From Nitrospirota bacterium (lineage in GTDB: Bacteria > Nitrospirota > Thermodesulfovibrionia > Thermodesulfovibrionales > UBA1546), in the NCBI GenBank assembly GCA_016195565.1, contig JACPZK010000011.1:13097-77096 (forward strand): DNA of 64,000 nucleotides, in the 5' to 3' direction. The position numbers and the translations under genes were made by a program. The notes below the pieces were generated by a model. That model was not told where the DNA came from. It searched no databases and saw only the letters and a program-made list of their open reading frames with translations. Positions 9,315-58,489 of this stretch are shown here, in pieces. How positions within the stretch are numbered: position 1 is the stretch's first letter; the number at the start of each line of letters is the position of its first letter.

Positions 9315-9450
9315 GAATTCCCTTTCATTATCGGGGACAGTCCCTACGTTACTTAATCCGTGCCCCTTAAACTATAACATCTTAAGGCCCCATGCTTCCA
9401 ATAGTTAACGCCTTTAAACAAAAAAATCAAATTGAGACTGCTGAAAAGGT

Positions 9451-9504
9451 GTCATTGTGAGCGAAGGCCCCTCGCCTGTCATTGCGAGGCGCAGCCGAAG
9501 CAAG
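9451..9504. repeat. type-A repeat, partial (two tandem GTCATTG[T/C]GAG heads)
   Basis: gtcattgtgagcgaagg...gtcattgcgaggcgcagccgaagc. Confidence 0.7.
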
Positions 9505-9545
9505 CTTAAAGCAAGCTCGGGTATAGAATAAAAGCTCTTGCCCTT

Positions 9546-9574
9546 TTGTCAAATTTAACTGCTTGTGATAAAAT
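9546..9574 (+). promoter_or_regulatory. candidate sigma70 promoter of the minor-pilin operon
   Basis: TTGTCA (9546-9551), 17-nt spacer, TAAAAT (9569-9574) preceded by TGa; the ATG at 9584 lies only 9 nt downstream, so the transcript may be near-leaderless. Confidence 0.35.
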
Positions 9575-9583
9575 CTAAACATA

Positions 9584-10183
9584 ATGAAAGTGTCAGGTAT
9601 CGGATTATTAAAAAAACTTTTCACTTTTAACTTTTCACCTCCCCATCCCCCCCTTACTAAGGGGGGGCGAGGGGGGGGCAACAAAGGTTTCACCCTCATA
9701 GAAACAGTAATCGTAATGGTCATTGCAGTTATCCTCGCTGCCGTGGTTGCCGTCGGATGGAGTCCTTTTGACACAATAAAACTCTACAATGCAAAGCGAA
9801 AAGTCGCCGCTGACATAAGATACTCCCAGAAACTTGCAATCTCATCACAGCAGAGGTGCGGAGTTTTCAGGAACAGCGCAACAGCTTACACAGTATTTGA
9901 ACAAGGCAGCACCGCTGACCCTGCGCCAAGTTCAGGGGATGGATGCTCCACAGATGCATCAAATAATTTTGTTGTTGATTTTAGCGCAGGCAGATGCAGT
10001 GATTACAGCGGAGTTACAACCACATTCACCACGTCCGTAGCAAATACAATATACTTCAACTCTCTCGGCACGCCTGTTGACGCCGCAGGAACAGCGATTG
10101 CAGGCAACCAGACTGTAACAGTCACTTTTAATGGCAGCAGGGATATAACCATAGACGCAGGCACAGGAAGGGTGAGTTACTAA
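9584..10183 (+). CDS. prepilin-type minor pilin/pseudopilin (GspH/FimT-like) with 35-aa leader
   Basis: KG|FTLIETVIVMVIAVILA cleavage/methylation motif; the leader contains a heptamer array plus C7/G7/G8 tracts. Confidence 0.75.
   Translation: MKVSGIGLLKKLFTFNFSPPHPPLTKGGRGGGNKGFTLIETVIVMVIAVILAAVVAVGWSPFDTIKLYNAKRKVAADIRYSQKLAISSQQRCGVFRNSATAYTVFEQGSTADPAPSSGDGCSTDASNNFVVDFSAGRCSDYSGVTTTFTTSVANTIYFNSLGTPVDAAGTAIAGNQTVTVTFNGSRDITIDAGTGRVSY
9616..9638. repeat. heptamer array (ACTTTTC ACTTTTA ACTTTTC ..), right-arm type only
   Basis: three or more tandem ACT-anchored 7-mers inside the prepilin leader. Confidence 0.8.
9647..9667. repeat. GC hairpin C7-TTACTAA-G7 (followed by CGA-G8)
   Basis: perfect 7-bp C/G stem; homopolymer tracts at 9647-9653, 9661-9667, 9671-9678. 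Confidence 0.85.
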
Positions 10184-10836
10184 TGAAAAAGTTAAGAGTT
10201 ATGAGTTTAGAGTTAAAAGTTAAAGACATCCTCAGAAAACTTTTCACTTTTAACTTTTCACTTTTAACTTCTAAAAGAGGTTTTACCCTCATTGAGATAT
10301 TGCTGATAATCATAGTTGTTTCAATCGCAATACCCACACTTTTAATTATGGTGGGGCAGGAAGCTAAGTTCGGGGTAGATGCTGAGATAAGAGTCACCGC
10401 AACAAATGTTGCACAGCAATTGCTTGAAGAGATAAAGGCAAAATGCTTTGATGAGACTTCCGTGTCCGGAACAACATGCATACAGACCGCAGCCGCTTCA
10501 ACAACGCTCGGGCCTGAGGCAGGAGAGACAGCGTTATCCTTATACGACGATGTTGACGACTTCAATGATTTGGCGCCGGCAAGTTTAGGAACTACTCCGT
10601 GCACCGACACAGTTACTGTCAATGGTATTGGATTCACAAGGCAGGCTGTGGCCTGCTATGTGAATCCCGGCAATCTCAACAGATGCGTGGATACTGCCCC
10701 TGTGGCGGGAAGCTGCAATAGGACCATTGCAAGCGGAAGCCAAACAGATTACAAAAATATAACCGTAACAGTCACCGCGCCTTCTGACTCCGGGGGCGGC
10801 TCTGTCACGCTGACAACAGTGATGACGAATTACTAA
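10183..10836 (+). CDS. prepilin-type minor pilin (PilV-like) with long leader
   Basis: RG|FTLIEILLIIIVVSIA motif; start overlaps the upstream stop (TAATG). Confidence 0.75.
   Translation: MKKLRVMSLELKVKDILRKLFTFNFSLLTSKRGFTLIEILLIIIVVSIAIPTLLIMVGQEAKFGVDAEIRVTATNVAQQLLEEIKAKCFDETSVSGTTCIQTAAASTTLGPEAGETALSLYDDVDDFNDLAPASLGTTPCTDTVTVNGIGFTRQAVACYVNPGNLNRCVDTAPVAGSCNRTIASGSQTDYKNITVTVTAPSDSGGGSVTLTTVMTNY
10190..10273. repeat. paired heptamer array: 5 x AGTTNNN, 14-nt spacer, 5 x ACTTTTN
   Basis: units phased by hand at 10190-10224 and 10239-10273; the arms are reverse complements. Confidence 0.9.
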
Positions 10837-10837
10837 G

Positions 10838-11413
10838 ATGAGAGTTAAAAGTTTAAAGTTTAAAGTTAAAAGTTCTTTGAAGAAACTCTTCACTCCTCAC
10901 TCTTCACTCTTCACTTGTAAAAATGGCGTTACGCTTATTGAGCTTGTCATAGTAATGGTTCTGGCAGCCATTGTTGCCGTTGTTGTGGCTAATGCCCTGT
11001 CAACGGGGGTTAAGGGAAACCTTGTGACAGACTACCGCAAAGAGGCGCTTGATCAGGCAAGGGTTGCGATGGAGAGGATGAGGAGAGAAATAAGGAATCT
11101 GAATAATAGCGCGAGCGTAACCACAGGAATCGCAACACAATTCTGTTTTACGGACACGGAATCATTGCTGATAGATTACAGTTATTCAAGTCCTAATATC
11201 ACCCGCGACACTGGCAATTGTGCTGCCGGAGGCGGGGCAACGCTTTCAACGAGTATAACTGCGTTTTCATTCGTTTATCTCAGGGCAGATGGAGTTACTG
11301 TTGATTCACCATTCTCCGCTGCAACCACAAAGCTTATAAGAATAATTTTGACCGCTAACATCTCAGGCGAAAGCGTTCAGCTTCAGACAGAGGTCTGGCC
11401 GCGGAATTTGTGA
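10838..11413 (+). CDS. prepilin-type minor pilin (PilW-like) with long leader
   Basis: NG|VTLIELVIVMVLAAIVA motif; EALDQARVAMERMRREIR region typical of PilW-like proteins. Confidence 0.7.
   Translation: MRVKSLKFKVKSSLKKLFTPHSSLFTCKNGVTLIELVIVMVLAAIVAVVVANALSTGVKGNLVTDYRKEALDQARVAMERMRREIRNLNNSASVTTGIATQFCFTDTESLLIDYSYSSPNITRDTGNCAAGGGATLSTSITAFSFVYLRADGVTVDSPFSAATTKLIRIILTANISGESVQLQTEVWPRNL
10843..10919. repeat. paired heptamer array: 5 x AGTTNNN, 7-nt spacer, 5 x ACTYYTC
   Basis: units phased at 10843-10877 and 10885-10919. Confidence 0.9.
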
Positions 11414-11425
11414 TATAATTTTTAT

Positions 11426-12445
11426 ATGAAACATAAACATTCAGGCAATTCCGGCATGTCCATCATTGCAACTGTCATGATTATGATGATACTTGCGCTT
11501 TTCGCCGCTATCGGAGTTTCGCTTGTAACAACCGGAAGCAATGTTGCGGTTCAGGAAGAGCGCGGGCTTGAGGCGTTTTACATTGCAGACGGAGGGCTTC
11601 AATACGCAATAAAGACATATAACTTTCCAAATTTTGTTGTTACTCCCAAGCCTCTCGGAGAAGGCTCATTTACCACAACAGTGCCTACGCTTTTAGCAGC
11701 TATAGATAATGCTGTGTTAACAATCACTGTGTCTTCAACAGACGGGTTTATTCTTAACCCCGGAGACGCAACCAGTTATTGGATAATGCTGTGTGATAAT
11801 AACGGCGCTGACAACCCGACTGCGACGCCGAATCCGAATCTTGACGCGGCAACGGCAAACTGTGAAAAAATAAGCTTTACAGGCAAAACAGCAACAACAT
11901 TTATAGGAGGCACAAGGGGAAGGGACAGCAGCACCGCAGACACCCATCAACTGGGCGCAGTTGTTCTTGGCTATTCGTGGGACCCGGCAAAAACAACGAC
12001 GATATCAACCCGTGATTTCACCACGGGTAATCGATGCACCAGTATTGCCACAACTTTATGTGTCGCCTCAACAGCGAATTTTGCAACCTCAGGCTTTGTC
12101 AGAATAGATGACAACAACCAAAACAACAGAGAGGATGTTTTTTATAACGGCATTGGCATTGGCGCAGCCCAATGCGGCGCGGGGTGCGCGGCGTGTCTGG
12201 GTTATACTAATCCTTTTCCCGCGGCGGGCAACTGCATAAGAAGGGCGTATGATGATAATAACAACACCACTGGAACCATCAATCACGACAGTTCCGACGC
12301 CGGCGGCGCCTACGGGGTGGTGGGCGCTCCAATCTATCAGTCTGAAATCTCTGTTCTTGCCACATCAACGGGCGTAGTTCCTGGTGCCATACTTACAGGC
12401 AACATACAGAGGGTTGTGCAGGGAAAAATAATGCCGCTGCAGTGA
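11426..12445 (+). CDS. PilX-like minor pilin / pilus-associated protein
   Basis: N-terminal hydrophobic helix GMSIIATVMIMMILALFAAIGV without FTLIE; position after the PilW-like gene. Confidence 0.55.
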   Translation: MKHKHSGNSGMSIIATVMIMMILALFAAIGVSLVTTGSNVAVQEERGLEAFYIADGGLQYAIKTYNFPNFVVTPKPLGEGSFTTTVPTLLAAIDNAVLTITVSSTDGFILNPGDATSYWIMLCDNNGADNPTATPNPNLDAATANCEKISFTGKTATTFIGGTRGRDSSTADTHQLGAVVLGYSWDPAKTTTISTRDFTTGNRCTSIATTLCVASTANFATSGFVRIDDNNQNNREDVFYNGIGIGAAQCGAGCAACLGYTNPFPAAGNCIRRAYDDNNNTTGTINHDSSDAGGAYGVVGAPIYQSEISVLATSTGVVPGAILTGNIQRVVQGKIMPLQ

Positions 12446-12462
12446 GGGATGGGAAATGGCCT

Positions 12463-12560
12463 GTCATTGCAAGGGCAGAATTTCTCGCTGTCATTGCGAG
12501 CACCTGAAAGGTGCGTGGCAATCTCATTGCAAAAGACGAGATTGTTTCGCTCGCAATAAC
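12463..12560. repeat. type-A palindromic element (with an extra head copy)
   Basis: gtcattgcaag..gtcattgcgag..tggcaatct..gagattgtttcgctcgcaataac. Confidence 0.8.
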
Positions 12561-12569
12561 CGGTAAAAT

Positions 12570-12857
12570 ATGGACAGACAATACTATCTATACATTATGA
12601 CAAATCAGAAAAATACAGTAATTTATACAGGTGTCACTAACAATTTAAAAAGAAGGGCTTATGAACATAAGGAGAAACTGGTTGAGGGATTTACAAAAAA
12701 ATATAACATTACAAAATTAGTTTATTACGAGATATTTAGTAATATAGAGTATGCTATTTTAAGAGAGAAACAGATTAAAGGCGGACCAAGAGCAAAGAAG
12801 ATTGCATTGATTAATAAAATAAATCATCAATGGAAAGACTTGTATGAAGACTTGTAA
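12570..12857 (+). CDS. small GIY-YIG nuclease-family protein
   Basis: YYLYIMTN...VIYTGVTNNLKRRAYEHK motif, 95 aa. Confidence 0.8.
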   Translation: MDRQYYLYIMTNQKNTVIYTGVTNNLKRRAYEHKEKLVEGFTKKYNITKLVYYEIFSNIEYAILREKQIKGGPRAKKIALINKINHQWKDLYEDL

Positions 12858-13005: not shown

Positions 13006-14697
13006 TTGCTCATAAGTTTACTGATAGCTGTCTCTCTTGTGTTTTTACTCCCTGACGGCGCCTCTGCCGGGCAAATTCCATTCACAGAACTTCAGATGCC
13101 TTCAGGACAGGACGGCACAACAGGACAAGGCGATTATGTAAGCTCAACCGGAGGCCTTAACACGTATCTCTCTTATTTTATTGAAGTCCCGCCGAGTTCA
13201 ACCACTCTGGTTGTTGACCTGTATGACGCAGATGTAGGGAATTTAGTCCCAAGCGATATAGGCGACAGGGTCCGTACTGCATATAATACATCCGTCACTT
13301 ACACCCTTTTAACACCTGCCGGGGCAACACAGGTTACAAAAACATGCGATTCCCTTCTTAATCTATGCATTCTTGAGAACGGCACATGGACAAACTTGGC
13401 TACAGTTGTTAATCCGGCTGCAGGGCACTGGGAGCTTCGGGTTGACATGGGCGCGGGTGACGACCTGAACGGTTTTGCGATAAGGGCGCATGACGGCGAC
13501 AAAACATCACGCGGAACAGAATACAATATATATGCGGACTCGTTTATTGACATTGGCGTCCATACCGCGGGCGGAAGCGGCGTCTATACAAATATATTTC
13601 CATTTATCACCTCAGGCTGTAACTTTTCAACCAGAGATTGGGATATGGACGGAGCAGGATCAATTTCAGTGACAAGCAGAACCGGCGCATTCACGCAGAC
13701 TAATTCTGCGGTTTCAGGCAGTACTGTATGGTTAACTACAACTGTGCCTGAAACAGGCTCCGGATGGACTACGGATGATTCAGCGGGTGATTACGGCATC
13801 TGGAGTTCCAATATGACAGTAAGTTTAGGCGCTAATTATACAACTATTTACCTTGGAACCTATAATTCAGGGGCAACTCCGCCAACAACACAGCCTCAGG
13901 CAAACACCTTTCGTATGTATTTTCCGACTGACGCCCTTTTAGGAGTAAATACCGCGCTCTCAGCCGGGAAGCTGATAGACGCCACAGCAAACTTTTCGGA
14001 TCCTGCCTCTCCGGTAATTATAGGTGATATTGTAAAAAATATATCACTGGGCACCGAAACAACGGTAACGTCAATAGACAGCGCCACACAGCTTGGACTT
14101 GCGGTTGATATTTTTACGGCCACACCGCAGAATTACTCTGTCAGCGGTTCAGCAACCGCCGCGCCTGTGAAGCCGTATCTTAGCCAGATATTACCAGACA
14201 TCCCGACGGTTATTACAGGCAAGACTACCCAGGTCAATATTCAGGTGACGATAACCAACCCGACTCCTTATAATATTACATTCTCTGCAGCAAACCTTGT
14301 TACCGCGAATGTGCCCGGCCCTACATGTCCGGCGGCTACAAATTCAGCCTGTTATGTGGGAAATTCCGCTTCCGTAACTCAGGGGGCTGTTAATTCCCAG
14401 CCCGCTGACGGGGCAACAGGGAACATAACATGGAACCCCGGAACGCTTTTAGCCGGCGCCTCTGCTTCTCTCACTTACACGGTAAAGGCAGCTCCGAATG
14501 CCGACGGCACTCGCATCCCTGTCACCGGCACCCCGGCGTCCAACGGAACCACAGCAAAATATGTTGATGAGACCGGCAATACCACACAGGCGCGCGCTAC
14601 ATATACCTACGGCCCTTTGTGCGAGCTTGCCGTAACATCAGTGTCGGGAGCCACAGGCGCAAAACGCTTTCTGAGATGGCGCGAGGTTATTCAGTAG
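13006..14697 (+). CDS. large secreted S/T/G/N-rich protein at the PilY1/tip-adhesin position
   Basis: proposed TTG start (AGGA 11 nt upstream) gives the signal peptide LLISLLIAVSLVFLLPDGASA; the longest ORF (from 12844) reads through repeat DNA and overlaps the GIY-YIG gene. Confidence 0.5.
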   Translation: MLISLLIAVSLVFLLPDGASAGQIPFTELQMPSGQDGTTGQGDYVSSTGGLNTYLSYFIEVPPSSTTLVVDLYDADVGNLVPSDIGDRVRTAYNTSVTYTLLTPAGATQVTKTCDSLLNLCILENGTWTNLATVVNPAAGHWELRVDMGAGDDLNGFAIRAHDGDKTSRGTEYNIYADSFIDIGVHTAGGSGVYTNIFPFITSGCNFSTRDWDMDGAGSISVTSRTGAFTQTNSAVSGSTVWLTTTVPETGSGWTTDDSAGDYGIWSSNMTVSLGANYTTIYLGTYNSGATPPTTQPQANTFRMYFPTDALLGVNTALSAGKLIDATANFSDPASPVIIGDIVKNISLGTETTVTSIDSATQLGLAVDIFTATPQNYSVSGSATAAPVKPYLSQILPDIPTVITGKTTQVNIQVTITNPTPYNITFSAANLVTANVPGPTCPAATNSACYVGNSASVTQGAVNSQPADGATGNITWNPGTLLAGASASLTYTVKAAPNADGTRIPVTGTPASNGTTAKYVDETGNTTQARATYTYGPLCELAVTSVSGATGAKRFLRWREVIQ

Positions 14698-14741
14698 AAG
14701 GAATCAGCGTACTTCAAAGTAATTTGTGTTATAATTTTTGT

Positions 14742-15155
14742 GTGAAAACAGATTTCTTAAAACAAATAAAAGATTATTTTAAGGACAGAGAAGAGGTTTC
14801 CGCTGTTTATCTGTTTGGCTCCACGGCAACCGGAAGTGAAACCGCTTCAAGTGATATTGACATTGCTATATTGCTAAAGCGCGGGGTTAATCCATACAAG
14901 CCGGACATCCAGTTAAAAATAATGTCAGACCTTGAATTGCTTTTAAAGAAACGCATTGATGTTGTTCTGCTGAACAGCGCAGACCCTATACTTGAACACC
15001 AGATACGCAAACATAGCAAAGTCCTCATTGATAAAAATCCGAAAATCAGAATGACTTATGAGTTAGAGGCAAGGAAAAAATACTTTGATTTTATATACAG
15101 GCACAACAACTATATGAAAATCCTGAAAAACAGGATTTTGCAGGTTTCACGATGA
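14742..15155 (+). CDS. mntA: MNT-type nucleotidyltransferase antitoxin
   Basis: LFGSTATGSETASSDIDIAIL (GSxxxG..DxD) motif; GTG 14742 or TTG 14724 start; TGtTATAAT extended -10 at 14727-14735; 4-nt overlap with hepT. Confidence 0.75.
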   Translation: MKTDFLKQIKDYFKDREEVSAVYLFGSTATGSETASSDIDIAILLKRGVNPYKPDIQLKIMSDLELLLKKRIDVVLLNSADPILEHQIRKHSKVLIDKNPKIRMTYELEARKKYFDFIYRHNNYMKILKNRILQVSR

Positions 15156-15601
15156 CAGATAAAGAAATTACAGACAGGCTGATTTCTCTGATTTCGGAAT
15201 ATACGGCTGATTTAAAAGAGGCCGCAGGGTCATACAGGAAATTTTCAGATTTCAGGGCTGACAAAAAAACCCAGAGATACGCTGAACGGACACTCCAGAT
15301 AGGCATTGAGGCGTGTCTTGACCTTGCCAATCATATTATTTCAGCAGAGGGTTTCCGGGAGCCTTCAAGCAATGCCGATGCTTTCTATGTGCTTTGTGAA
15401 AATAAGATAATTCCGACAGCCTTCTTCAATAAACTGAAAGACATGGCAAGTTTCAGAAACCTGATGGTCCATAATTACGCAAAGGTGGACATTGCAAAGG
15501 TTTACGGAATTCTGAAAAGGCATCTAAGAGATTTTGATATATATCTCGCCTATATCGTCAAGTTTCTTGAAAGAAACAAAACAGCAAAGAAAAAGAAGTA
15601 A
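15152..15601 (+). CDS. hepT: HepT (DUF86/HEPN) toxin
   Basis: RNLMVHNY matches the Rx4HxY HEPN motif; paired with MNT. Confidence 0.8.
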   Translation: MTDKEITDRLISLISEYTADLKEAAGSYRKFSDFRADKKTQRYAERTLQIGIEACLDLANHIISAEGFREPSSNADAFYVLCENKIIPTAFFNKLKDMASFRNLMVHNYAKVDIAKVYGILKRHLRDFDIYLAYIVKFLERNKTAKKKK

Positions 15602-15892: not shown

Positions 15893-17026
15893 TTATCCTG
15901 CATTGACAAATCTGCCGCCTTTTATAAGCGCTGTCCTGATGCCGCCTTTATGAATCAATGTCACGGTGGGCCTGAAGAACACAAAGTCCTGATGAAACGG
16001 CGTGCTGACATTTCCTCCGAATGAACTGTTGTCACCAAGCGCAATATGAATCGTGCCGAGGATTTTTTCCGATTCAAGAATATTGTCAGGCCTTTTCGCC
16101 ATATCATTGGTGCCTATGCCGAGTTCCGCTATATTTGCATTTTCAATGCGCTCTGACAGTTTTGCTCTCAGATAACCGGCGTATTCCTCATCACCTGATA
16201 CCTCTTTAACAAATCCGTTTTTTACTGTTAATGTCACAGGTGATTTTAATTGCCTCGTAGGCGCAAACTCAAGGACCAGCCGACCTTCTGCCGTGCCTTC
16301 CAACGGCGCAAGATATACCTCGCCTGCCGGAAGATTTCCGAATGAACCCGGCGCTGTGAGAAGCCCGGTGTCTGATTCTGCCTTCCTGCCTTTTTTTGAA
16401 AATGAAATAGAGGTGCCGTTAGGCGTCTCTATCTCTACAGCCTCAGCCTTATCTACAATTCTCGCAATGCCCCTGGTCCTTCTGTCAATCAGTCTCCAGT
16501 TTACGTTCATTGCGCCCTCAAGCATCGCCGCATCAAACAACGGCATGCTGGCATAACGTGTTTTGCATATCCTTGTCAGAAGGTCCCTGAACCTCGTATG
16601 GCTTGTAGAATAATTTGAAAGCGCAATGACAGCATTCACAGCATACTTTTTATGGCGGGCTATAATTTCTTCTGCCCTTCTCATATCCGAATCATCAGCT
16701 TTTTTATTTATGAGGCGGGCTGACAGCTTTTGCGCCTTCAGCTCATTGAATGCCTTTTCGCCGAATGCCATTGCCCATAGTTCTTTAGGAGGCTCTGCGC
16801 CGTGGCTGCCTGTGGCAGGATATTCATGATAAAGAATCTTTTTGCAGAAACCTTTCCCTGTCTCAGCGATAAGGATGGCTATGTCGCGCAGTCTTTCCCT
16901 TCTGCATCTGTCTGAATCCTCTATGAACTCTTCATTAAATGGCACATCTGTGAATACAAGAACACTCTCTGATTTTTTGACTCTTAGGTTAACGCTGAAT
17001 ATGTTCCTTAGCGTCTTTGTCGTCAA
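15893..17026 (-). CDS. aminopeptidase, probably M29 (AmpS/AmpT-like) family
   Basis: AELGIGTN and GTIHIALGDN..GGNVSTPFHQD regions resemble M29 motifs as I recall them. Confidence 0.5.
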   Translation of the reverse strand: MTTKTLRNIFSVNLRVKKSESVLVFTDVPFNEEFIEDSDRCRRERLRDIAILIAETGKGFCKKILYHEYPATGSHGAEPPKELWAMAFGEKAFNELKAQKLSARLINKKADDSDMRRAEEIIARHKKYAVNAVIALSNYSTSHTRFRDLLTRICKTRYASMPLFDAAMLEGAMNVNWRLIDRRTRGIARIVDKAEAVEIETPNGTSISFSKKGRKAESDTGLLTAPGSFGNLPAGEVYLAPLEGTAEGRLVLEFAPTRQLKSPVTLTVKNGFVKEVSGDEEYAGYLRAKLSERIENANIAELGIGTNDMAKRPDNILESEKILGTIHIALGDNSSFGGNVSTPFHQDFVFFRPTVTLIHKGGIRTALIKGGRFVNAG

Positions 17027-18450
17027 ATCTCTTCTGCTTTAATCCGCGGGGTTATGAATATGAGAAGTTCTGTTTTATCCTTTGTTTTAGTCTCTTTCTT
17101 GAACAGCCATCCAATCAGAGGAATCCTGGAAAGTAATGGTACTCCAGCCTCTCCCTCTGTTTCTGTCTCTGTATAGATGCCGCCGATAACTATTGTCTCG
17201 CCGTTTTTAACAATGAGATTGGTCTGCGTCTCACGTGTGTTCTTAGGCGGACTTCCCTGAACACTGCGGCTAAAGTCAAATACATCCCTGGATGTCAAAA
17301 TCTTCAGAGATATCTGGTCGTCATTTATCACCCTTGGAGTAACTTTTAACTGCAACAGAGCTTCTTTTTCCGTAACACTCGTAGTAGTAGTCGTTCCAGA
17401 CGTACTCGATGTAGGAATAAGTATGCCTGTGCCGCTCTTGATATAAGCCTCCTGATTGTCAAGAACCATCACCTTCGGGCTTGACAGCGTCCTTGCACTC
17501 CCCTGAGTTTCAAGGGCTGATATCTGGAGGTCAAGTATCGCATTTTTTGTAAGAATACCTATGCCTATTGCTCCGCCGGAACCAAACCCAACCGCAGCCG
17601 GCAGATTTACATTCAAAGCGCTCCCTCCAAAACCAGCGCCTCCTGTTAATGGGATTGTCCCTGTAGTTGTCGTGCCGGGACCTGTAGTGCTTGATGGCAG
17701 CACCCCTACAGTGCCGGTAGTACCTGTTGTGCCGCCACCGGATGTGCCGCCACCAAATATATATGCATCACCGTTCCGGTACATCGTGCCCCACTGTATG
17801 CCCAATTCCCTGCTTGCATTTGTGCTGACCTCAACAATCTTTGCCTCTATCATAATCTGCTTTGTCTTTACATCCACCTGTTTCAAAAGCTGCGTAACCC
17901 TCTCTATTGCAGACGGAATATCCCTTATAACTACCATATTGCTCTTCAGGTCAGAGGCAATGGAACCCCTCTTGCTTAAGACCTTTGTAATAATTCCCTC
18001 AATGTCTTTAGCATTAGCGTATTTAACGGTTGCCGTATAGGTCGCAAGGTCTTCGTCTGCTCCCGAAGAAATCACTCTCACAACATTCCCATCCTTTATG
18101 TATGCAAAGCCCTTGCCCTTTAATATAGAATCAATAGCATCCCATAGAGGGACATTCCTGAGGCTGACTGTCACCTTGCCCGTAACTTTTTCGTCAATAA
18201 TTATGTTTATGCCGTGCTCCTGTCCCAGCGCCCTCAAAACATCGCTCAGTTCAACGTCCCTTAATTCCATTGAGATAGGAGCGCCTTTTTCATTGGCGTA
18301 AGAAGGTGAGAAGTAAGAAGTAAACAGCAAAATAAGAGCAGTAGCGCAGAAGCGCAGAAGCGCAGCAGTAAAAGATTCCTTCACTAAAGACTGCTGCTCT
18401 ATTGCTCTATTGCTCTGTTGCACCCTTGACCCCTCTTTCTGCATTCTCAT
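17023..18450 (-). CDS. pilQ: type IV pilus secretin PilQ
   Basis: secretin C-domain (VPLLSRIPLIGWLFK, ELLIFITPRI); G/T-rich linker; an alternative GTG start at 18384 would give the signal peptide MKESFTAALLRFCATALILLFTSYFSPSYA. Confidence 0.85.
   Translation of the reverse strand: MRMQKEGSRVQQSNRAIEQQSLVKESFTAALLRFCATALILLFTSYFSPSYANEKGAPISMELRDVELSDVLRALGQEHGINIIIDEKVTGKVTVSLRNVPLWDAIDSILKGKGFAYIKDGNVVRVISSGADEDLATYTATVKYANAKDIEGIITKVLSKRGSIASDLKSNMVVIRDIPSAIERVTQLLKQVDVKTKQIMIEAKIVEVSTNASRELGIQWGTMYRNGDAYIFGGGTSGGGTTGTTGTVGVLPSSTTGPGTTTTGTIPLTGGAGFGGSALNVNLPAAVGFGSGGAIGIGILTKNAILDLQISALETQGSARTLSSPKVMVLDNQEAYIKSGTGILIPTSSTSGTTTTTSVTEKEALLQLKVTPRVINDDQISLKILTSRDVFDFSRSVQGSPPKNTRETQTNLIVKNGETIVIGGIYTETETEGEAGVPLLSRIPLIGWLFKKETKTKDKTELLIFITPRIKAEEI
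18306..18422. repeat. triple array: 4x7 (GTGAGAA-type), 4x8 (GCAGNAGC), spacer, 4x8 (CTNNTGCT)
   Basis: units phased by hand; covers the first ~48 codons of pilQ. Confidence 0.85.
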
Positions 18451-19010
18451 TCCTTCGCCTCCTTATCCTCTTTTTTATCTTTACCTTTGTCATCCTTTTT
18501 ATCTTTCACCTCATCATCCATGGCGCTATCTCTACGGGTATCCAGCGCAAACTTCTCTACTCCAAGATAAAACCTTTTGCCATTTTTTTCAAGCGAGACC
18601 CTGTCTTTCGCTATATCCACTATCAGAAAATCATTGACCCTTTCATTCTTCCTGTAAAATCCGCCGTTTATTATTGCCACCGCCTTCTTTCCGTCAGAAA
18701 TTATACCGGTAATCTTCAAGCCTACAAGCATATCTTCTCTAAACGTCTTGCCTTTTAGTTTTGCTATCTTGTCTTCATACCGGATAAATGGGTCCCTGCC
18801 CCACTTTTCTTTTATCGGTTGTTCCAGCGCGTCAAGTTTTATATCCGAGAGGCTCTCAGCATGTGCAAGTGAGAAGTGAAAAGTTAAGAGTAAGATGAGC
18901 CCAGTAGCCCAGTAGCTCAGTAGGGCAGCAGTTAAAGAGAAAGTCTTTGCAGTTGTATCTTCCTGCTGCTCTATTGCTCTACTGCTCTGTTGCTCTATCA
19001 ACCCCTTCAT
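18447..19010 (-). CDS. pilP: PilP-like pilus assembly protein
   Basis: GRDPF motif, beta-rich C-domain, position between pilO and pilQ; K/D-rich tail. Confidence 0.6.
   Translation of the reverse strand: MKGLIEQQSSRAIEQQEDTTAKTFSLTAALLSYWATGLILLLTFHFSLAHAESLSDIKLDALEQPIKEKWGRDPFIRYEDKIAKLKGKTFREDMLVGLKITGIISDGKKAVAIINGGFYRKNERVNDFLIVDIAKDRVSLEKNGKRFYLGVEKFALDTRRDSAMDDEVKDKKDDKGKDKKEDKEAKE
18869..18994. repeat. triple array paralogous to 18306-18422 (4x7, 4x8 GCCCAGTA-type, spacer, 4x8 CTNNTGCT)
   Basis: the last block is 30/32 identical to 18391-18422; the other blocks differ in sequence but keep period and unit number. Confidence 0.85.
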
Positions 19011-19555
19011 TCCTTTTTCCTCAGATACGTCACTGCTTTCAGCAAAGCTACGCCTGAAGGATACAGTGCAGCGTTTGTCTCAAATTTAAGTTCCTGTATA
19101 AGAAATAATTTATGCCTTGTTTCAAGAATCTTAATGAAATCATACAACTCCCTAAACTTTACCCTCAGTTCGATCTTTACCCTTAATTCTATAAATTTAT
19201 TTTTATGCTCAAAACCTTCAGGCGCTATGGATACAAAATCAACATTTGCAATAGTAGCCTCCCTGCTTATAGCCGCTAACATTCCTGAAAGATCTTCCGC
19301 CTCCGGAAGCGTAATCTTTTCTGCGACAGGTTCCTTCGGGAAAGCGGCCTGTGATGCCAATGCTGCATTTGCTGCCTCTATCTCTTTCTTTAAATTCTGA
19401 ATCGCCTGTTTTTTGTTCTTAACACTTACGGATGAAGGCGAATAAAGCAGCATGTATGGAACAATAACGATTATTACTGTAAGCGTTACTATAGCAATCA
19501 GCCTTTCCCTCTGCGAAAGGCTTTCTATCTTACTTTTAATAGCTTTTATGTCCAT
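19007..19555 (-). CDS. pilO: PilO-like pilus assembly protein
   Basis: single N-terminal TM plus coiled coil, operon position. Confidence 0.6.
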   Translation of the reverse strand: MDIKAIKSKIESLSQRERLIAIVTLTVIIVIVPYMLLYSPSSVSVKNKKQAIQNLKKEIEAANAALASQAAFPKEPVAEKITLPEAEDLSGMLAAISREATIANVDFVSIAPEGFEHKNKFIELRVKIELRVKFRELYDFIKILETRHKLFLIQELKFETNAALYPSGVALLKAVTYLRKKE

Positions 19556-19584
19556 ATCTCTAATTCTTAACTCTCAACTCTTTT

Positions 19585-40907: not shown

Positions 40908-40996
40908 AGATTGCCACGCTGGAGCCTGCCCTGAACGATAAAACGAGATTGCTTCGCGACGCTCGCAATGACAAAAGTGAAGGGGCTCGCAATGAC
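40908..40996. repeat. type-A element (right half with duplicated tail)
   Basis: agattgccacgc..gagattgcttcgcgacgctcgcaatgac..ggctcgcaatgac. Confidence 0.75.
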
Positions 40997-41041
40997 AGAG
41001 AATAAACGGCTCTTAATGAATGCCGTTAGGGGTTTTTTAAG

Positions 41042-48056: not shown

Positions 48057-48445
48057 TGAAAAAGTTTGCTGTATTCAGTTTAATCATGCTTTTAATAGCG
48101 GGCATTGCTTATGCAAAAGATTATGAAGTAAAGAAAAAGGCAGGGGAATACGATGTGGAGATAAAAATCGACAAAAACCCGCCTGTAGTGGGCGACAATA
48201 ATATCACAGTAGAAATTAAAGATGCATCGGGTAAATATGTGACCGATGCAAAGGTGAAGGTTGAATATTCCATGCCTGCCATGCCTGGTATGCCTGCCTC
48301 GAACTACAAGACAGACACAGAACTCAAAGGCTATGAATACAAGGCAAAGATGAATCTCTCCATGTCAGGTGCGTGGAATGTCGCAGTAAAAATAACAAGG
48401 AGCGGTAAAACCACAACGGTAAAATTCAATGCGGATGCGCACTAA
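48053..48445 (+). CDS. secreted YtkA/FixH-like Met-rich metal-binding protein
   Basis: signal peptide; MPAMPGMPAS; Ig-like beta pattern. Confidence 0.55.
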   Translation: MMKKFAVFSLIMLLIAGIAYAKDYEVKKKAGEYDVEIKIDKNPPVVGDNNITVEIKDASGKYVTDAKVKVEYSMPAMPGMPASNYKTDTELKGYEYKAKMNLSMSGAWNVAVKITRSGKTTTVKFNADAH

Positions 48446-49835
48446 GATAGAAGATAAGAGGATAAGAAGTTTGGAAGATAAGAATATTACCTCCAATGCA
48501 CAACTTCTCAACTTCTCAACTTCTCAATTTCTAATTCTTTTACTGTTTACTGTCTACTGTTTACTGTCTACTGAAAATGCTTTTGCCGAAGAACTGAAAC
48601 TTCAGCCCCTGATAGACGAGGCGCTGAAGAGCAATCATGACCTCATTGTATCAGGATTAAAGGTATCCACTTCAAAATACAAGATACCTCAGGTACAGAG
48701 CCTTCCTGACCCCATGTTCATGTTCGGCTATCAGAATGAAGGATACGACAGATACACTTATGGCGAGATGCAGGGCGCACAGTGGATGTTCTCTGCATCT
48801 CAGATGTTCCCATTCCCCGGGAAGCTATCGTTAAAGGGAGAGATGGCTCTTAGAGATTCTGAAAGCCTAAAGGCATTATACGAATCCGCAAAGCTCACAA
48901 CAATAGCGAGAATAAAAGAACTTTACTATGACCTGTTCCTCACCTATAGAGACATTGACATCATTAAAGACAAGAATTCGCTTTTCTCAAGGATAGAGGA
49001 TGCAGCCATTGCAAGATACTCATCAGGCATGGCGCCGCAGCAGGAAGTATTAATGGCTCAAACAGAAAAATACATGCTGCTTGAAAAAGAGGAGATGCTG
49101 AAACAAAAGCTGCGATCCATAGAGGCGATGCTAAACACAACCGTTGGCCGGGATGTTAATTCGCCTCTCGGAAGGCCTGTTGAACCTGTTTATGTTTCGT
49201 ATAACCCAAGCATGGATGAACTTCTTAAAATGTCATACTCAAATTCTCCTCTGATAAAATCCAGAGAAAAGATGATTGCCTCGGCAAAGGCAAAGGTTAA
49301 TATGGCTGAGAAGGAATATTATCCTGATTTCACCATTGCCGGCTCAGTCTTTGAGCGGAGGGGAGAGTTCAAAGATATGTGGAGCCTCACAACCACAATC
49401 AACATACCTATTTTTTATAAAACAAAACAGAAAATGGCTGTGCTTGAGGCAGAATCAGCCCTTTCAGAGGCAAAACACGAACTTGAGGCGGTTAAGTTAA
49501 TGCTGTCATCCAATATAAGAGAAAACTACTCTATGATTAAGGCTGCGGAAAAATTAACGGAGCTGTACAGGAATGGACTTATACCCAAGGCATATCAGGA
49601 TTTTGAACTCGCAATTGCCGGATATGTAACAGGAAAAGTCGAGGCAATAACTGTCATAACAAGGCTGAAATCACTTATTGACTATGAGCTTTTATACTGG
49701 GGGCAGTTTACGGAAAGAGAGAAGGCAACAGCGAGGCTTGAGGCGATAACAGCAGTCAGCAATCAGCACTCAGTACGCCCTGCTCTTCAGAATAAAATTG
49801 AGGCGAGCGTCATTCAGGGAGAAAAAGAAAAATGA
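48429..49835 (+). CDS. TolC-family outer membrane efflux protein (CusC position)
   Basis: two OEP repeats; the N-terminal 55 aa are encoded by arrays. Confidence 0.8.
   Translation: MRMRTKIEDKRIRSLEDKNITSNAQLLNFSTSQFLILLLFTVYCLLSTENAFAEELKLQPLIDEALKSNHDLIVSGLKVSTSKYKIPQVQSLPDPMFMFGYQNEGYDRYTYGEMQGAQWMFSASQMFPFPGKLSLKGEMALRDSESLKALYESAKLTTIARIKELYYDLFLTYRDIDIIKDKNSLFSRIEDAAIARYSSGMAPQQEVLMAQTEKYMLLEKEEMLKQKLRSIEAMLNTTVGRDVNSPLGRPVEPVYVSYNPSMDELLKMSYSNSPLIKSREKMIASAKAKVNMAEKEYYPDFTIAGSVFERRGEFKDMWSLTTTINIPIFYKTKQKMAVLEAESALSEAKHELEAVKLMLSSNIRENYSMIKAAEKLTELYRNGLIPKAYQDFELAIAGYVTGKVEAITVITRLKSLIDYELLYWGQFTEREKATARLEAITAVSNQHSVRPALQNKIEASVIQGEKEK
48444..48576. repeat. triple array: 5 x 8 (AGATAAGA-like), 16-nt spacer, 3-5 x 8 (ACTTCTCA), 5 x 7 (ACTGNNT)
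   Basis: units phased at 48444-48483, 48503-48541, 48542-48576. Confidence 0.9.
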
Positions 49836-57878: not shown

Positions 57879-57926
57879 AGATTAAGAATTCAAGGTTCAA
57901 AATAAATTTAAAATTCAAGATTCAAG
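57846..57926. repeat. direct heptamer array, about 12 x ATTCAAG-like units
   Basis: attcaag attcaag attgaaa attcaaa attaaag attaaga attcaag gttcaaa ... attcaag attcaag; the first units encode the R-M C-terminus and TAA. Confidence 0.9.
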
Positions 57927-57939
57927 AAAGGAGAAAAAC

Positions 57940-58442: not shown

Positions 58443-58489
58443 TCTGCTTTGCAGCCCTTATGCTATAATCAATCAAAAGGAGGCATCCA

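What the first reader, a model, noticed from the sequence alone, without database searches (positions are those of the whole stretch)
9584..10925. Three consecutive prepilins have 17-35 aa leader peptides built from translated heptamer arrays
The cleavage motifs KG|FTLIE, RG|FTLIE and NG|VTLIE are preceded by far more codons than the 5-10 usual for type IVa or T2SS pseudopilins. I checked codon by codon. In none of the three genes is there an in-frame ATG, GTG or TTG downstream of the ACT-unit block, so at least the right array arm must be translated. The leaders share (K/R)KLFT(F/P)(N/H)(F/S)S, the translation of the spacer end plus the first ACT units. This shows the three inserts are homologous DNA elements, not convergent peptides. 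Leader peptides are cleaved off by prepilin peptidase, so an element here is invisible in the mature pilin. It places a 35-bp hairpin over the translation-initiation region of each cistron.
Basis: seen in the sequence. Interest (0 to 1): 0.6.

Follow-up and report, generated by a model that had tools for sequence, protein, structure and literature searches.

The report
Repeat cassettes translated into prepilin leaders
Three neighbouring minor-pilin genes of an uncultured Nitrospirota bacterium carry, in frame inside their cleavable N-terminal leaders, copies of a genome-wide family of hairpin-forming 7-base repeat arrays, and the same kind of cassette also encodes ordinary secretion signals in this lineage, so disposable targeting peptides act as a safe harbour, and possibly a control point, for repeat DNA.

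Summary
ORFs 9584-10183, 10183-10836 and 10838-11413 are prepilins, with the N_methyl/TIGR02532 motif starting at residue 33, 30 and 28. Their leaders are 35, 33 and 30 aa, or 33, 27 and 17 aa at the shortest. No canonical start codon lies after the ACT-unit arrays.

Comparative data support translation:
- The junction ATG and its Shine-Dalgarno-like site are conserved.
- In 42 distinct array-bearing leaders from relatives the reading frame has no stops. The other two frames have 103 and 119.
- Array-free orthologues have 4-14 aa leaders.

The arrays belong to a lineage-specific, transcription-oriented family, with 26 arrays in the 64 kb window.

The cassettes are modular:
- The same cassette sits on different pilin genes in different lineages.
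- One cassette is shared by a PilP-like protein and LptE, at about 90% DNA identity.
- Cassettes are more conserved (92-99%) than the flanking coding DNA (74-90%).

Sec signal peptides of the secretin, the PilP-like protein and a TolC-like protein in the window are also array-encoded.

The claimed hairpin is convincing only for gene 2. Rare alleles broken by frameshifts at repeat tracts hint at on/off switching.

Verdict: a new variant of in-frame palindromic repeat elements. Its function is unproven.

The parts
9546..9574 (+). Promoter-like site: TTGTCA, 17-nt spacer, TAAAAT, with an upstream TG. The ATG at 9584 lies about 10 nt after the -10 box, so the mRNA would be nearly leaderless.
   Evidence: The same block plus CTAAACATAATG is conserved in L001, L084, L093 and L095.
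9584..10183 (+). Gene 1, a GspH/FimU-like minor prepilin. The leader is 9584-9688 (35 aa, MKVSGIGLLKKLFTFNFSPPHPPLTKGGRGGGNKG|FTLIE).
9613..9638 (+). Right-arm-type heptamer array (ACTTTTM)x3.3, translated as KLFTFNFS. It is identical to 10236-10261.
9633..9681 (+). A second element: a G/C palindrome with C7, G7 and G8 tracts, translated as PPHPPLTKGGRGGG. It is the only copy in the window.
   Evidence: (I12). The same element is in other pilin leaders (L008, L010, L093) and in frame inside leucyl-tRNA synthetase of L099.
10163..10176 (+). Shine-Dalgarno-like ACAGGAAGGGTGAG inside the 3' end of gene 1, 6 nt before the ATG at 10183. The gene 1 stop overlaps that ATG (TAATG).
   Evidence: It is conserved in L002, L005, L015, L018, L081, L083 and L091-L096.
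10183..10836 (+). Gene 2, a PilV/MshD-like minor prepilin. The leader is 10183-10281 (33 aa, MKKLRVMSLELKVKDILRKLFTFNFSLLTSKRG|FTLIE).
10187..10224 (+). Gene 2 cassette, 5' purine-rich arm (AAAAGTT)x5.4. The unit GTTTAGA replaces GTTAAGA exactly where TAA would be in frame.
10225..10237 (+). Gene 2 cassette loop.
   Evidence: It shows a single synonymous change in L091 and L093.
10238..10274 (+). Gene 2 cassette, 3' pyrimidine-rich arm (AACTTTT)x5.3. The unit in the stop-prone phase is ACTTTTC, not ACTTTTA.
10838..11413 (+). Gene 3, a minor prepilin. The leader is 10838-10927 (30 aa, MRVKSLKFKVKSSLKKLFTPHSSLFTCKNG|VTLIE). An alternative TTG start at 10877 lies in the loop and gives 17 aa.
10843..10874 (+). 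Gene 3 cassette, 5' arm (AGTTAAA)x4.6. AGTTTAA variants occur where TAA would be in frame.
10885..10915 (+). Gene 3 cassette, 3' arm (ACTCTTC)x4.4. It is only about 5/7 complementary to the 5' arm.
11426..12445 (+). Fourth gene of the operon. From its hydrophobic N-terminus alone it looks PilX-like, but no Pfam or NCBIfam family matched. It has no array and has its own extended -10 box (TGTGATATAAT at 11408-11419).
   Evidence: (D18).
18295..18450 (-). Same phenomenon: the 5' end of the secretin gene. Octamer and heptamer arrays encode the signal peptide ...VKESFTAALLRFCATALILLFTSYFSPSYA|NEK. A GTG sits in the hairpin loop.
18858..19010 (-). Same phenomenon: the 5' end of the PilP-like gene. 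The whole 51-aa signal peptide is array-encoded (...LLSYWATGLILLLTFHFSLAHA|ES). The cassette is shared with LptE genes elsewhere.
48429..48587 (+). Same phenomenon: the 5' end of a TolC-like outer-membrane efflux protein. Three arrays encode a 53-aa signal peptide (...FLILLLFTVYCLLSTENAFA|EE).

Best explanation
The three genes are minor type IV prepilins of an uncultured Thermodesulfovibrionales (Nitrospirota) bacterium. Translation starts at the junction ATGs (9584, 10183, 10838).

Each ATG is followed, in frame, by a cassette from a lineage-specific, genome-wide family of repeats. A cassette has a purine-rich array of 7-nt units, a short loop, and the roughly complementary pyrimidine-rich array. 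Gene 1 also carries a separate G/C palindrome.

The cassettes are translated into 30-35 aa, strongly basic leaders (net charge about +6 to +8). Each leader ends in (K/R/N)G just before (F/V)TLIE, where prepilin peptidase is expected to remove it.

The cassettes are modular DNA units that spread or are exchanged between genes. They persist at cistron boundaries and inside cleavable N-terminal peptides, meaning prepilin leaders and Sec or lipoprotein signal peptides. There, the complementary arms naturally give a hydrophilic K/R/Q/E-rich segment followed by an L/F/T/S-rich segment.

Selection keeps the cassettes stop-free and in frame.

Shown here: the anatomy, frame maintenance, absence in array-free orthologues, cassette sharing, and nucleotide conservation above the flanks.

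Inferred: cleavage by prepilin peptidase, any RNA-level effect of the hairpin on initiation or coupling, and the mechanism of spread.
For: Prepilin identity and leader lengths.

No canonical start lies after the arrays.

The junction ATG, with the SD-like GGAAGGGTGAG 6 nt upstream and stop/start overlap, is conserved across array-bearing and array-free relatives.

Frame test on 42 distinct leaders (1457 codons): 0 stops in frame against 103 and 119 in the other frames. Only 1 of 84 off-frames is stop-free.

The units that would give an in-frame TAA are exactly the mutated ones (read from sequence).

Array-free orthologues have 4-14 aa leaders: L004, L006, L007, L009, L012, L016, L025 and L086. 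The alignment of 24 orthologues is conserved from G-1 onward and hypervariable before it.

Genome-wide family:
- There are 26 period-7/8 arrays in 64 kb. Relatives with short leaders have none in about 10 kb.
- The purine-rich arm is 5' on the coding strand in 10 of 10 cases, including genes on the minus strand.

Modularity:
- The same cassette is on gene 3 in L002, L081 and L093 but on gene 2 in P0041 and P0045-49.
- The window's PilP-like cassette is about 90% identical over 150 nt to the LptE signal-peptide cassette of L099.

Conservation: the gene 2 leader is 92-99% identical where the flanks are 74-90%. Other cassettes show 0.97-0.98 against 0.68-0.89.
Against: There is no direct evidence of translation start or leader cleavage. 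No proteome, Ribo-seq or prepilin peptidase gene was seen in the ORFs scanned.

In GGATACA-type cassettes of relatives, an in-frame ATG or GTG lies 6-7 codons before the cleavage site. A short leader is therefore possible there.

Alleles exist in which the junction ATG is out of frame or cut off by a stop while the pilin body is intact in two of them: L081/L082, L083 and L089/L090. So expression from the junction ATG is not universal.

Single arrays also sit in frame inside cytoplasmic enzymes in the window, so 'tolerated because cleaved' is not the only way they survive.

Conservation above the flanks is not expected for a merely tolerated passenger.
Confidence: 0.75

Rival explanations
1. 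The cassettes are selected cis-regulatory RNA elements. A hairpin that starts at or just after the start codon makes initiation of each minor-pilin cistron depend on ribosomes arriving from the upstream cistron (strict translational coupling). Alternatively it exposes the mRNA to a double-strand-specific RNase. Translation of the cassette is a by-product that the cleavable leader absorbs.
For: The gene 2 hairpin is -22.4 kcal/mol with z = -2.4. Most orthologous leaders fold better than shuffles, with z from -2 to -9.

In GGATACA-type cassettes the helix begins exactly at the junction AUG.

The orientation follows transcription in 10 of 10 cases.

The leader DNA is more conserved than the flanking codons. 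Changes concentrate in the loop and outside the stem.

Stop/start overlaps occur at the junctions.
Against: The hairpin is not better than shuffled sequence for window gene 3 (z = +1.3), L002 gene 2 (z = +2.2) and L001 gene 1 (z = +0.4).

L095 carries two right-arm changes without compensation.

The operon works without any cassette in related species.

There is no Rfam family.
Confidence: 0.3
2. The leaders are contingency loci. The 7-nt arrays and G/C homopolymers in the leader codons slip during replication and switch individual minor pilins, and hence piliation, on and off. This would work like the CTCTT repeats in Neisseria opa leaders or the poly-G tract in the pilC signal-peptide region.
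For: The repeat units are not multiples of 3 and lie in the 5' coding region.

L084 and L085 (same species, two samples) differ by exactly one ATTCAAG unit. That moves the ATG in and out of frame.

L089/L090 carry G8 where G7 would be in frame. L081/L082 lack one T in the loop. In both cases the mature ORF is fully intact.

The window's gene 1 leader holds C7, G7 and G8 tracts.
Against: There are only 3-5 units per array.

The window-type gene 2 cassette is nearly invariant (92-99%) across four diverged lineages, the opposite of a hypermutable tract.

L084/L085 also carry a frameshifting 8-nt duplication in the gene body, and the L083 operon looks decayed. Some broken alleles are therefore plain pseudogenes.

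Consensus assemblies cannot show within-population mixtures. Homopolymer assembly errors are not excluded.
Confidence: 0.2
3. Annotation artefact. The arrays are untranslated intercistronic or 5'-UTR DNA, and the pilins start at an unrecognised codon close to the cleavage site, giving ordinary short leaders.
For: In relatives with GGATACA-type arrays, an in-frame ATG or GTG sits 6-7 codons before G-1.

In the secretin, a GTG in the hairpin loop would give a canonical signal peptide.

Broken-frame alleles with intact bodies exist.
Against: In the window there is no ATG, GTG or TTG after the arrays. There is no ATT, ATC or CTG within about 10 codons of G-1 in genes 2 and 3.

The frame is open in 42 of 42 intact leaders, while only 1 of 84 off-frames is open.

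Stop-prone units are specifically altered.

The conserved SD plus ATG lies upstream of the arrays.
Confidence: 0.06
4. The long leaders are conserved functional peptides, for example targeting, chaperoning or timing of minor-pilin processing. They would be selected at the amino-acid level rather than being DNA elements.
For: The gene 2 leader is conserved across lineages.

Leaders are uniformly very basic, which fits cytoplasmic retention (read from the sequences).
Against: Orthologous genes carry completely different leaders built from different units.

The same sequences occur untranslated at junctions of cytoplasmic genes, with stops in all frames.

The same cassette serves unrelated proteins.

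Conservation is at the nucleotide level, including synonymous sites.
Confidence: 0.05

Closest known systems
Rickettsia palindromic elements (RPE), selfish palindromic repeats inserted in frame in protein-coding genes (own knowledge: Ogata et al. 2000, Science)
   Same: Both are dispersed palindromic repeats that survive inside ORFs because they are kept in frame and sit in tolerant parts of the protein. The G/C palindrome of gene 1 behaves exactly this way: it also sits in frame inside leucyl-tRNA synthetase of L099.
   Different: There is no sequence relationship and the phylum differs. The arms here are built from tandem 7-8-nt units. The cassettes concentrate at cistron starts and in cleavable N-terminal peptides. 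They are oriented with transcription and are more conserved than their host genes.
Heptamer tandem repeats near start codons: TAACTGA repeats of marine Beggiatoaceae, cyanobacteria and Bacteroidetes (PMC4679880), and cyanobacterial STRR heptamers (own knowledge)
   Same: Both have 7-nt units, a few copies per set, high copy number per genome, placement at or next to start codons in forward orientation, and indels in 7-nt steps. A related unit (GTTAACTGACACTG) occurs in one cassette family here.
   Different: Those repeats are direct repeats, almost all intergenic and untranslated, with only one inverted set reported in BOGUAY. No Nitrospirota are reported. Here the arrays come as inverted pairs forming hairpins and are read through as leader or signal peptides.
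Simple-sequence contingency loci in leader-coding regions: Neisseria opa CTCTT repeats and the pilC poly-G tract in the signal-peptide region (own knowledge)
   Same: Both have repeats with units not divisible by 3, or homopolymers, inside the N-terminal signal-coding part of surface or pilus proteins. Alleles differ by one unit or one base and toggle the frame.
   Different: Copy numbers are low. The main cassette is invariant across lineages. The arrays are paired and palindromic. The organisms are environmental groundwater bacteria, and switching has not been demonstrated.
Type IVb pilins (TcpA, BfpA and CofA class) with 15-30 aa leaders (own knowledge)
   Same: Both have a long leader before the G-1 cleavage site.
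   Different: Here +1 is F (V in gene 3). The machinery is PilMNOPQ-type. Orthologues have 4-14 aa leaders. The extra length is repeat DNA, not a conserved class feature.
REP/BIME extragenic palindromes (PMC3733652) and bacterial MITEs (PMC10969869)
   Same: Both are short, abundant, palindromic, non-autonomous repeats at gene boundaries. The cassettes appear to move between loci.
   Different: The copies in question are intragenic and translated. The arms are tandem arrays. No GTAG or CGTC head, terminal inverted repeats with target duplications, or associated transposase were seen.
Borg tandem repeats that create disordered regions in proteins (PMC9879509)
   Same: Both are lineage-specific tandem repeats that arise in ORFs, are kept in frame and add low-complexity peptide segments.
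   Different: This comparison rests on the paper's title and abstract only. Here the units are 7-8 nt, so the frame rotates through the array, and the arrays are paired as hairpins at N-termini.

Membership tests
Type IV prepilin / pseudopilin (class III signal peptide) | G at -1, F/M/V at +1, E at +5, followed by about 20 hydrophobic residues (Pfam N_methyl, TIGR02532). | tested here: met
   The motif lies at aa 33-55, 30-49 and 28-50. Gene 2 is below the Pfam cut-off (18.1 against 21.2 bits) but hits TIGR02523 PilV and has 69 orthologues.
Type IV prepilin / pseudopilin (class III signal peptide) | Short (about 5-10 aa) basic leader, as in type IVa pilins and T2SS pseudopilins. | tested here: not met
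   The leaders are 35, 33 and 30 aa, or at least 33, 27 and 17 aa. They are basic (+6 to +8). Array-free orthologues do meet this feature, at 4-14 aa.
Type IV prepilin / pseudopilin (class III signal peptide) | Cleavage and N-methylation by a prepilin peptidase (PilD/GspO). | not testable with these tools
   No peptidase A24 gene was found among the ORFs scanned. The rest of the genome is not available.
Type IV prepilin / pseudopilin (class III signal peptide) | Operon and machinery context. | tested here: met
   Three prepilins are followed by an ORF with a hydrophobic N-terminus (no family match; PilX-like only by eye) and a 617-aa protein. PilM, PilN, PilO, a PilP-like protein and a secretin lie at 17023-21074.
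Type IVb pilins | The long leader is a class feature, with +1 not F, and dedicated tcp/bfp-type operons. | tested here: not met
   F is at +1 in genes 1 and 2. Orthologues have short leaders. The machinery is PilMNOPQ.
In-frame palindromic repeat elements (RPE-like behaviour) | Dispersed multi-copy palindromic repeat. | tested here: met
   There are 26 arrays in 64 kb, and the same unit families occur at several loci.
In-frame palindromic repeat elements (RPE-like behaviour) | Copies inside ORFs are kept in frame and stop-free. | tested here: met
   0 against 103 and 119 stops; G/C palindrome in frame in LeuRS.
In-frame palindromic repeat elements (RPE-like behaviour) | Sequence homology to the Rickettsia RPE families. 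| not tested
   No comparison was run. None is expected, given the different phylum and tandem-unit structure.
REP/BIME | Extragenic location. | tested here: not met
   The three cassettes lie inside ORFs, downstream of the start codons.
REP/BIME | GTAG or CGTC tetranucleotide head, and association with a RAYT transposase. | tested here: inconclusive
   Reading the sequence shows no such head on the three leader cassettes. RAYT presence cannot be checked without the genome.
Heptamer direct repeats at start codons (TAACTGA / STRR type) | Tandem 7-nt units, a few copies, many sets per genome. | tested here: met
Heptamer direct repeats at start codons (TAACTGA / STRR type) | Intergenic, ending just upstream of the start codon, untranslated, direct rather than inverted. 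| tested here: not met
   The leader copies start 4-5 nt after the ATG and are read through. Most sets are inverted pairs. Other copies in the window do end 2-17 nt before a start.
SSR contingency (phase-variable) locus | A repeat with unit not divisible by 3, or a homopolymer, in the 5' coding region. | tested here: met
SSR contingency (phase-variable) locus | Tract-length polymorphism that toggles the frame among otherwise equivalent alleles. | tested here: inconclusive
   It is seen in relatives: L084 against L085 (one unit), L089/L090 (G8) and L081/L082. The window-type cassette shows no length variation in five loci. No read-level data are available.

The most novel reading that the evidence does not exclude
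In one clade of Thermodesulfovibrionales, hairpin cassettes made of inverted 7-8-nt arrays act as portable N-terminal modules. They move between unrelated genes: between pilin paralogues, and between a PilP-like protein and LptE.

They are read as prepilin leaders or as complete Sec or lipoprotein signal peptides. This works because complementary arms automatically encode a basic, hydrophilic stretch followed by a hydrophobic one.

They are held under nucleotide-level selection stronger than that on the host genes. That would imply a selected role, either RNA-hairpin control of cistron initiation or repeat-slippage switching of pilus-tip and envelope proteins.
Probability: 0.35. Interest if true: 0.85.

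Novelty: new variant of a known kind. Interest (0 to 1): 0.7.

Why it matters
Signal and leader peptides are usually treated as gene-specific sequences shaped only by the export machinery. Here a repeat family supplies them. The same DNA cassette forms the prepilin leader or signal peptide of different proteins. It is kept in frame and is better conserved than the genes around it.

If that holds, three things follow:
- It gives a concrete route by which repeat DNA creates or replaces export signals.
- It offers a natural test of how long and how odd a prepilin leader a prepilin peptidase will accept.
- It points to a possible layer of control over pilus-tip proteins in abundant groundwater bacteria, through coupling or on/off switching.

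It also matters practically. Gene callers truncate or extend such genes unpredictably. Several database entries for these pilins start at an internal Met.

Tried and rejected
The single-gap scan gave only 6 loci, too few for an unbiased census of intact against broken junctions.
- Searching with the leader peptide alone failed. The 33-aa query was too short. A 61-aa concatenation of two leaders found no word matches. A full HMMER scan of 1.84 billion representatives with the 33-aa leader returned nothing at E <= 0.001. Whether the window's gene 2 cassette also sits on non-pilin genes therefore remains open.
- Rfam gave only sub-threshold microRNA noise.
- Six literature searches found no description of these arrays in Nitrospirota, or of repeat-encoded prepilin leaders.
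- No prepilin peptidase was found among the 30 ORFs scanned.
- An intrinsic terminator role was rejected: the stems are AU-rich, no U-tract follows, and the scan found none at the cassettes.
- Type IVb pilin identity was rejected (see the membership test).
- Local in-situ expansion of an ancestral MKKLR-coding heptamer was considered, because L086 has ATGAAAAAACTAAGA. It is not favoured as the sole origin, since the same unit family and whole cassettes occur at unrelated loci.


Full report
**1. The observation**

The region holds three consecutive ORFs, at 9584-10183, 10183-10836 and 10838-11413 on the + strand. Pfam N_methyl and NCBIfam TIGR02532 place the prepilin cleavage/methylation motif at residues 33-55, 30-49 and 28-50. 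Weaker matches are to GspH/ComGD for gene 1 and PilV for gene 2.

The cleavage contexts are NKG|FTLIE, KRG|FTLIE and KNG|VTLIE. A scan of in-frame ATG, GTG and TTG codons gives these leader lengths:

| Gene | Longest leader | Shortest leader |
|---|---|---|
| 1 | 35 aa (ATG 9584) | 33 aa (GTG 9590) |
| 2 | 33 aa (ATG 10183) | 27 aa (ATG 10201) |
| 3 | 30 aa (ATG 10838) | 17 aa (TTG 10877) |

No start codon lies after the ACT-unit block.

Tandem Repeats Finder reports these arrays:
- (ACTTTTC)3.3 at 9616-9638.
- (AAAAGTT)5.4 at 10187-10224, inverted to (AACTTTT)5.3 at 10238-10274.
- (AGTTAAA)4.6 at 10843-10874, followed by (ACTCTTC)4.4 at 10885-10915.

The double unit ACTTTTMACTTTTM occurs 15 times in the window against 0.23 expected. 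A 26-nt stretch is identical between genes 1 and 2.

The hairpin claim holds only in part:
- Gene 2 folds at -22.4 kcal/mol (z = -2.4).
- Gene 3 folds no better than shuffled sequence (-9.9 kcal/mol, z = +1.3), because its arms match at only about 5 of 7 positions per unit.
- Gene 1 has no left arm. Its stable fold (-42 kcal/mol) comes from a different G/C palindrome at 9633-9681, which is translated as PPHPPLTKGGRGGG.

**2. Context**

The gene 2 protein is 100% identical to HY035_04560 of a 'Nitrospirae bacterium' MAG. The close relatives are Thermodesulfovibrionales and Nitrospirota MAGs from groundwater and lake metagenomes.

The operon continues with an ORF that has a hydrophobic N-terminus. 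It looks PilX-like by eye, but no family matched. A 617-aa protein follows. PilM, PilN, PilO, a PilP-like protein and a secretin lie at 17023-21074 on the other strand.

A promoter-like TTGTCA, 17-nt spacer and TAAAAT, with an upstream TG, ends 10 nt before ATG 9584. The gene 1 stop overlaps ATG 10183 (TAATG). An SD-like ACAGGAAGGGTGAG lies 6 nt upstream of that ATG. The gene 2 stop is 1 nt before ATG 10838.

**3. Are the arrays translated?**

Four independent lines say yes.

(a) There is no canonical start after the arrays. In genes 2 and 3 there is no near-cognate codon close to the cleavage site.

(b) The junction SD plus ATG is conserved in relatives. The arrays begin 3-9 nt after that ATG in every array-bearing locus.

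(c) I collected 42 distinct array-bearing leaders, 1457 codons in all, from the window and 16 related loci. The pilin frame has no stop between the junction start and G-1. The other two frames have 103 and 119 stops, and only 1 of 84 off-frames is stop-free. A perfect (AGTTAAA)n or (ACTTTTA)n array would put TAA in all three frames within three units. In genes 2 and 3, the units that fall in the dangerous phase are exactly the altered ones: GTTTAGA, AGTTTAA and ACTTTTC (read from sequence). Copies of the same family between cytoplasmic genes are closed in every frame. One even supplies the stop codon of the upstream gene at 41806.

(d) Orthologues without arrays have ordinary leaders of 4-14 aa. 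L086 reads TAATGAAAAAACTAAGATCAGAAAACGGC, which is MKKLRSENG|FTLIE. The window has MKKLR, then 24 extra residues, then SKRG|FTLIE. The alignment of 24 orthologues is highly conserved from G-1 onward. Upstream it is hypervariable in both sequence and length, from 5 to 57 aa.

**4. What the arrays are**

The window holds 26 period-7/8 arrays, forming about 17 elements:
- Six elements lie in the 5' coding ends of exported proteins.
- About seven fill gene junctions.
- Four single arrays, not inverted pairs, lie in frame inside ORFs that mostly encode cytoplasmic enzymes. These are an LplA-like ligase at 39482, a P-loop protein at 27596, a likely EPSP synthase at 63704, and the 3' end of the efflux gene at 49750. 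The P-loop and EPSP synthase identities are read from motifs, with no family search behind them.

Unit sequences differ between elements: AGTTAAA/ACTTTTM, ATTCAAG/TTGAATM, AGAGCAAT/CTGCGCTT, AGTGAAC/ACTGACA and others.

In 10 of 10 paired elements the purine-rich arm is 5' on the coding strand. This includes the two elements on minus-strand genes. Orientation therefore follows transcription.

Array density is 2-19 per 10 kb in relatives whose pilins have long leaders. It is zero in relatives with short leaders.

No Rfam family matches.

**5. Cassette behaviour**

The leaders behave as modules. The 99-nt gene 2 leader compares as follows between the window and four diverged loci (L091, L093, L094, L095):

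| Segment | Nucleotide identity |
|---|---|
| 99-nt gene 2 leader | 92-99% |
| 300 nt upstream | 74-84% |
| First 120 nt of the mature coding region | 75-90% |
| Rest of the gene | 59-71% |

In those same loci, genes 1 and 3 carry quite different cassettes. Other cassettes repeat the pattern, at 0.97-0.98 identity against 0.68-0.89 for the flanks. An AT-rich KIQNSK type is more variable.

The same cassette sits on different genes in different lineages. MKNAKIKEVPVISVCVRKKLTLLTDTVTAVFKSRR.G is on gene 3 in L002, L081 and L093, but on gene 2 in P0041 and P0045-49.

The G/C palindrome of gene 1 is single-copy in the window. It recurs in pilin leaders of L008, L010 and L093, always in the frame PP.NPPL.KGG. 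It also sits in frame inside leucyl-tRNA synthetase of L099, as EIKL[SPPLNPPLGKGGQRGG]INYWMPVDQYIGG.

**6. Beyond prepilins**

The Sec signal peptides of three exported proteins in the window are array-encoded. The cleavage sites below are my reading of the AxA rule:
- Secretin: ...VKESFTAALLRFCATALILLFTSYFSPSYA|NEK, with a GTG in the hairpin loop.
- PilP-like protein: the only starts are M1 and L4, and the peptide reads ...LLSYWATGLILLLTFHFSLAHA|ES.
- TolC-like protein: the only starts are M1, M3 and L15, and the peptide reads ...FLILLLFTVYCLLSTENAFA|EE.

Orthologues of the PilP-like protein keep the mature start (ESLSDIKLDAL). Distant ones have ordinary signal peptides of about 20 aa. Thermodesulfovibrionales ones have 30-60 aa signal peptides built from many different array types.

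Seven hits in that search are LptE lipoproteins. They share only the cassette (EQQSSRAIEQQEDTTAKTFSLTAALLGYWATGLILLFT) followed by a lipobox. At the DNA level, the window's PilP-like cassette and the LptE cassette of L099 are about 90% identical over 150 nt, loop included.

The complementary arms give a K/R/Q/E-rich segment followed by an L/F/T/S-rich segment. That is the n-region and h-region order of a signal peptide. In prepilins it yields a very basic leader, with net charge +6 to +8.

**7. Broken alleles**

- L081/L082 lack one T in the loop. The junction ATG then runs into TAA after 12 codons.
- L089/L090 have G8 where G7 would be in frame.
- In both of these cases the mature ORF is complete.
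- L084 and L085 are the same species from two samples and differ by exactly one ATTCAAG unit. That shifts the ATG in or out of frame. Both also carry an 8-nt tandem duplication in the gene body.
- L083 has a stop in the left arm, in an operon that looks decayed.

These alleles are compatible with repeat-slippage switching. They are equally compatible with recent pseudogenes. The invariance of the window-type cassette argues against hypermutability there.

**8. Mechanism**

Best supported (confidence 0.75): the cassettes are in-frame, translated copies of a lineage-specific repeat family. Selection keeps them open, and they sit in leaders that prepilin peptidase is expected to remove.

Not shown: the cleavage itself, how the cassettes spread, and whether the hairpin or the repeats have a selected role.

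Conservation above the flanks and transcription-linked orientation argue for more than passive tolerance. An RNA hairpin controlling initiation or coupling (0.3) and slippage-based switching (0.2) are the two candidate roles, and both could sit on top of translation. The alternative of a downstream, unrecognised start is unlikely for the window (0.06).

**9. Comparison with known systems**

- The behaviour is closest to Rickettsia palindromic elements, which are in-frame selfish palindromes (own knowledge).
- The unit structure and start-codon placement resemble the TAACTGA heptamer repeats of Beggiatoaceae, cyanobacteria and Bacteroidetes (PMC4679880) and cyanobacterial STRR. Those are direct, intergenic and untranslated.
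- The placement of slippery repeats in leader codons recalls Neisseria opa and pilC (own knowledge).
- The genes are not type IVb pilins, and the cassettes are not REP/BIME (see the membership table).
- Six literature searches found no description of such arrays in Nitrospirota, or of repeat-encoded prepilin leaders or signal peptides.

**10. Verdict**

I rate it a new variant of a known kind, interest 0.7.

**11. Dead ends**

- Leader-only protein searches gave nothing.
- The metagenome pattern scan gave few loci.
- No prepilin peptidase was found in the ORFs scanned.

Noticed in passing
window 18295-18450 (-), 18858-19010 (-), 48429-48587 (+): The Sec signal peptides of the secretin, a PilP-like protein and a TolC-like efflux protein are encoded by the same kind of inverted hepta/octamer arrays. 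In the secretin, a GTG in the hairpin loop would give a canonical 30-aa signal peptide.
   Followed up: yes
L099 2001-2200 versus window 18858-19010: An LptE lipoprotein gene in another Nitrospirota MAG carries the same cassette as the window's PilP-like gene. The two are about 90% identical over 150 nt, loop included. The LptE copy is followed by a lipobox instead of an AxA site.
   Followed up: yes
L099 about 955-1000: The G/C palindrome of the gene 1 leader (PP.NPPL.KGG.RGG) is inserted in frame inside a leucyl-tRNA synthetase gene, just before the NYWMPVDQYIGG motif.
   Followed up: partly
window 39482-39513, 27596-27625, 63704-63737: Single direct arrays are read in frame inside apparently cytoplasmic proteins. 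(ACTCGTC)4.6 falls in an LplA-like ligase. (AGCGTTC)4.3 falls in a P-loop protein. (AGGGGTCA)4.2 falls in a likely EPSP synthase. The last two identities are read from motifs only. Each array adds about 10 low-complexity residues.
   Followed up: partly
L084 2501 region and L085 1428 region: Two samples of one species differ by one ATTCAAG unit in the leader. Both carry an 8-nt tandem duplication (CTTTTAAT) in the pilin body that breaks the frame. The duplicated sequence resembles an array unit, which hints at how arrays might be born.
   Followed up: partly
L091 versus L093 (gene 2): The sequences are identical from upstream through the first 40 mature codons, then only 69% identical. This indicates recombination that swaps the C-terminal pilin domain. 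It could also be strain mixing in assembly.
   Followed up: no
window 9546-9583 and 11408-11425: Two extended -10 promoter-like sites (TGTGATAAAAT and TGTGATATAAT) lie 7-10 nt before ATG 9584 and ATG 11426, with no Shine-Dalgarno site. This suggests leaderless or near-leaderless mRNAs. The first block is conserved in L001, L084, L093 and L095.
   Followed up: partly
window 57846-58443: A gene for a 23S rRNA intervening-sequence protein (PF05635, the four-helix family that from my own knowledge includes DGR Avd) lies at 57940-58386. It is flanked by an (ATTCAAG)12 array upstream and an (AAATTCA)/(ATTGAAT) hairpin downstream.
   Followed up: no
window 12570-12857: A small GIY-YIG nuclease gene sits between the fourth operon gene and the 617-aa gene, overlapping the start of the latter. 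The long ORF of the 617-aa protein runs through another repeat type (the ...SSLAMT... element) before its likely signal peptide.
   Followed up: no
window 9440-9510, 12393-12581, 40961-41019: A further repeat family has the core CATTGCGAG/CTCGCAATGAC. It translates as ...LAMT... or ...VIARS... in spurious ORFs. Related elements (...SFPRKRESR...WIPxQARNDR...) are read through in the gene 3 leaders of L018 and L091.
   Followed up: no
window 14619-15601: A nucleotidyltransferase (Polbeta/MNT) and HepT-like RNase pair, a probable toxin-antitoxin module, lies directly after the 617-aa gene.
   Followed up: no
proteins P0009, P0017, P0018, P0027, P0030, P0032, P0050, P0061, P0062: Many database entries for this pilin start at an internal Met (MIIIVVSIAIP...), after the cleavage motif. 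In the two checked (P0018, P0050), gene callers found no usable start, because the junction ATG was frameshifted or cut off by a stop within the arrays.
   Followed up: partly
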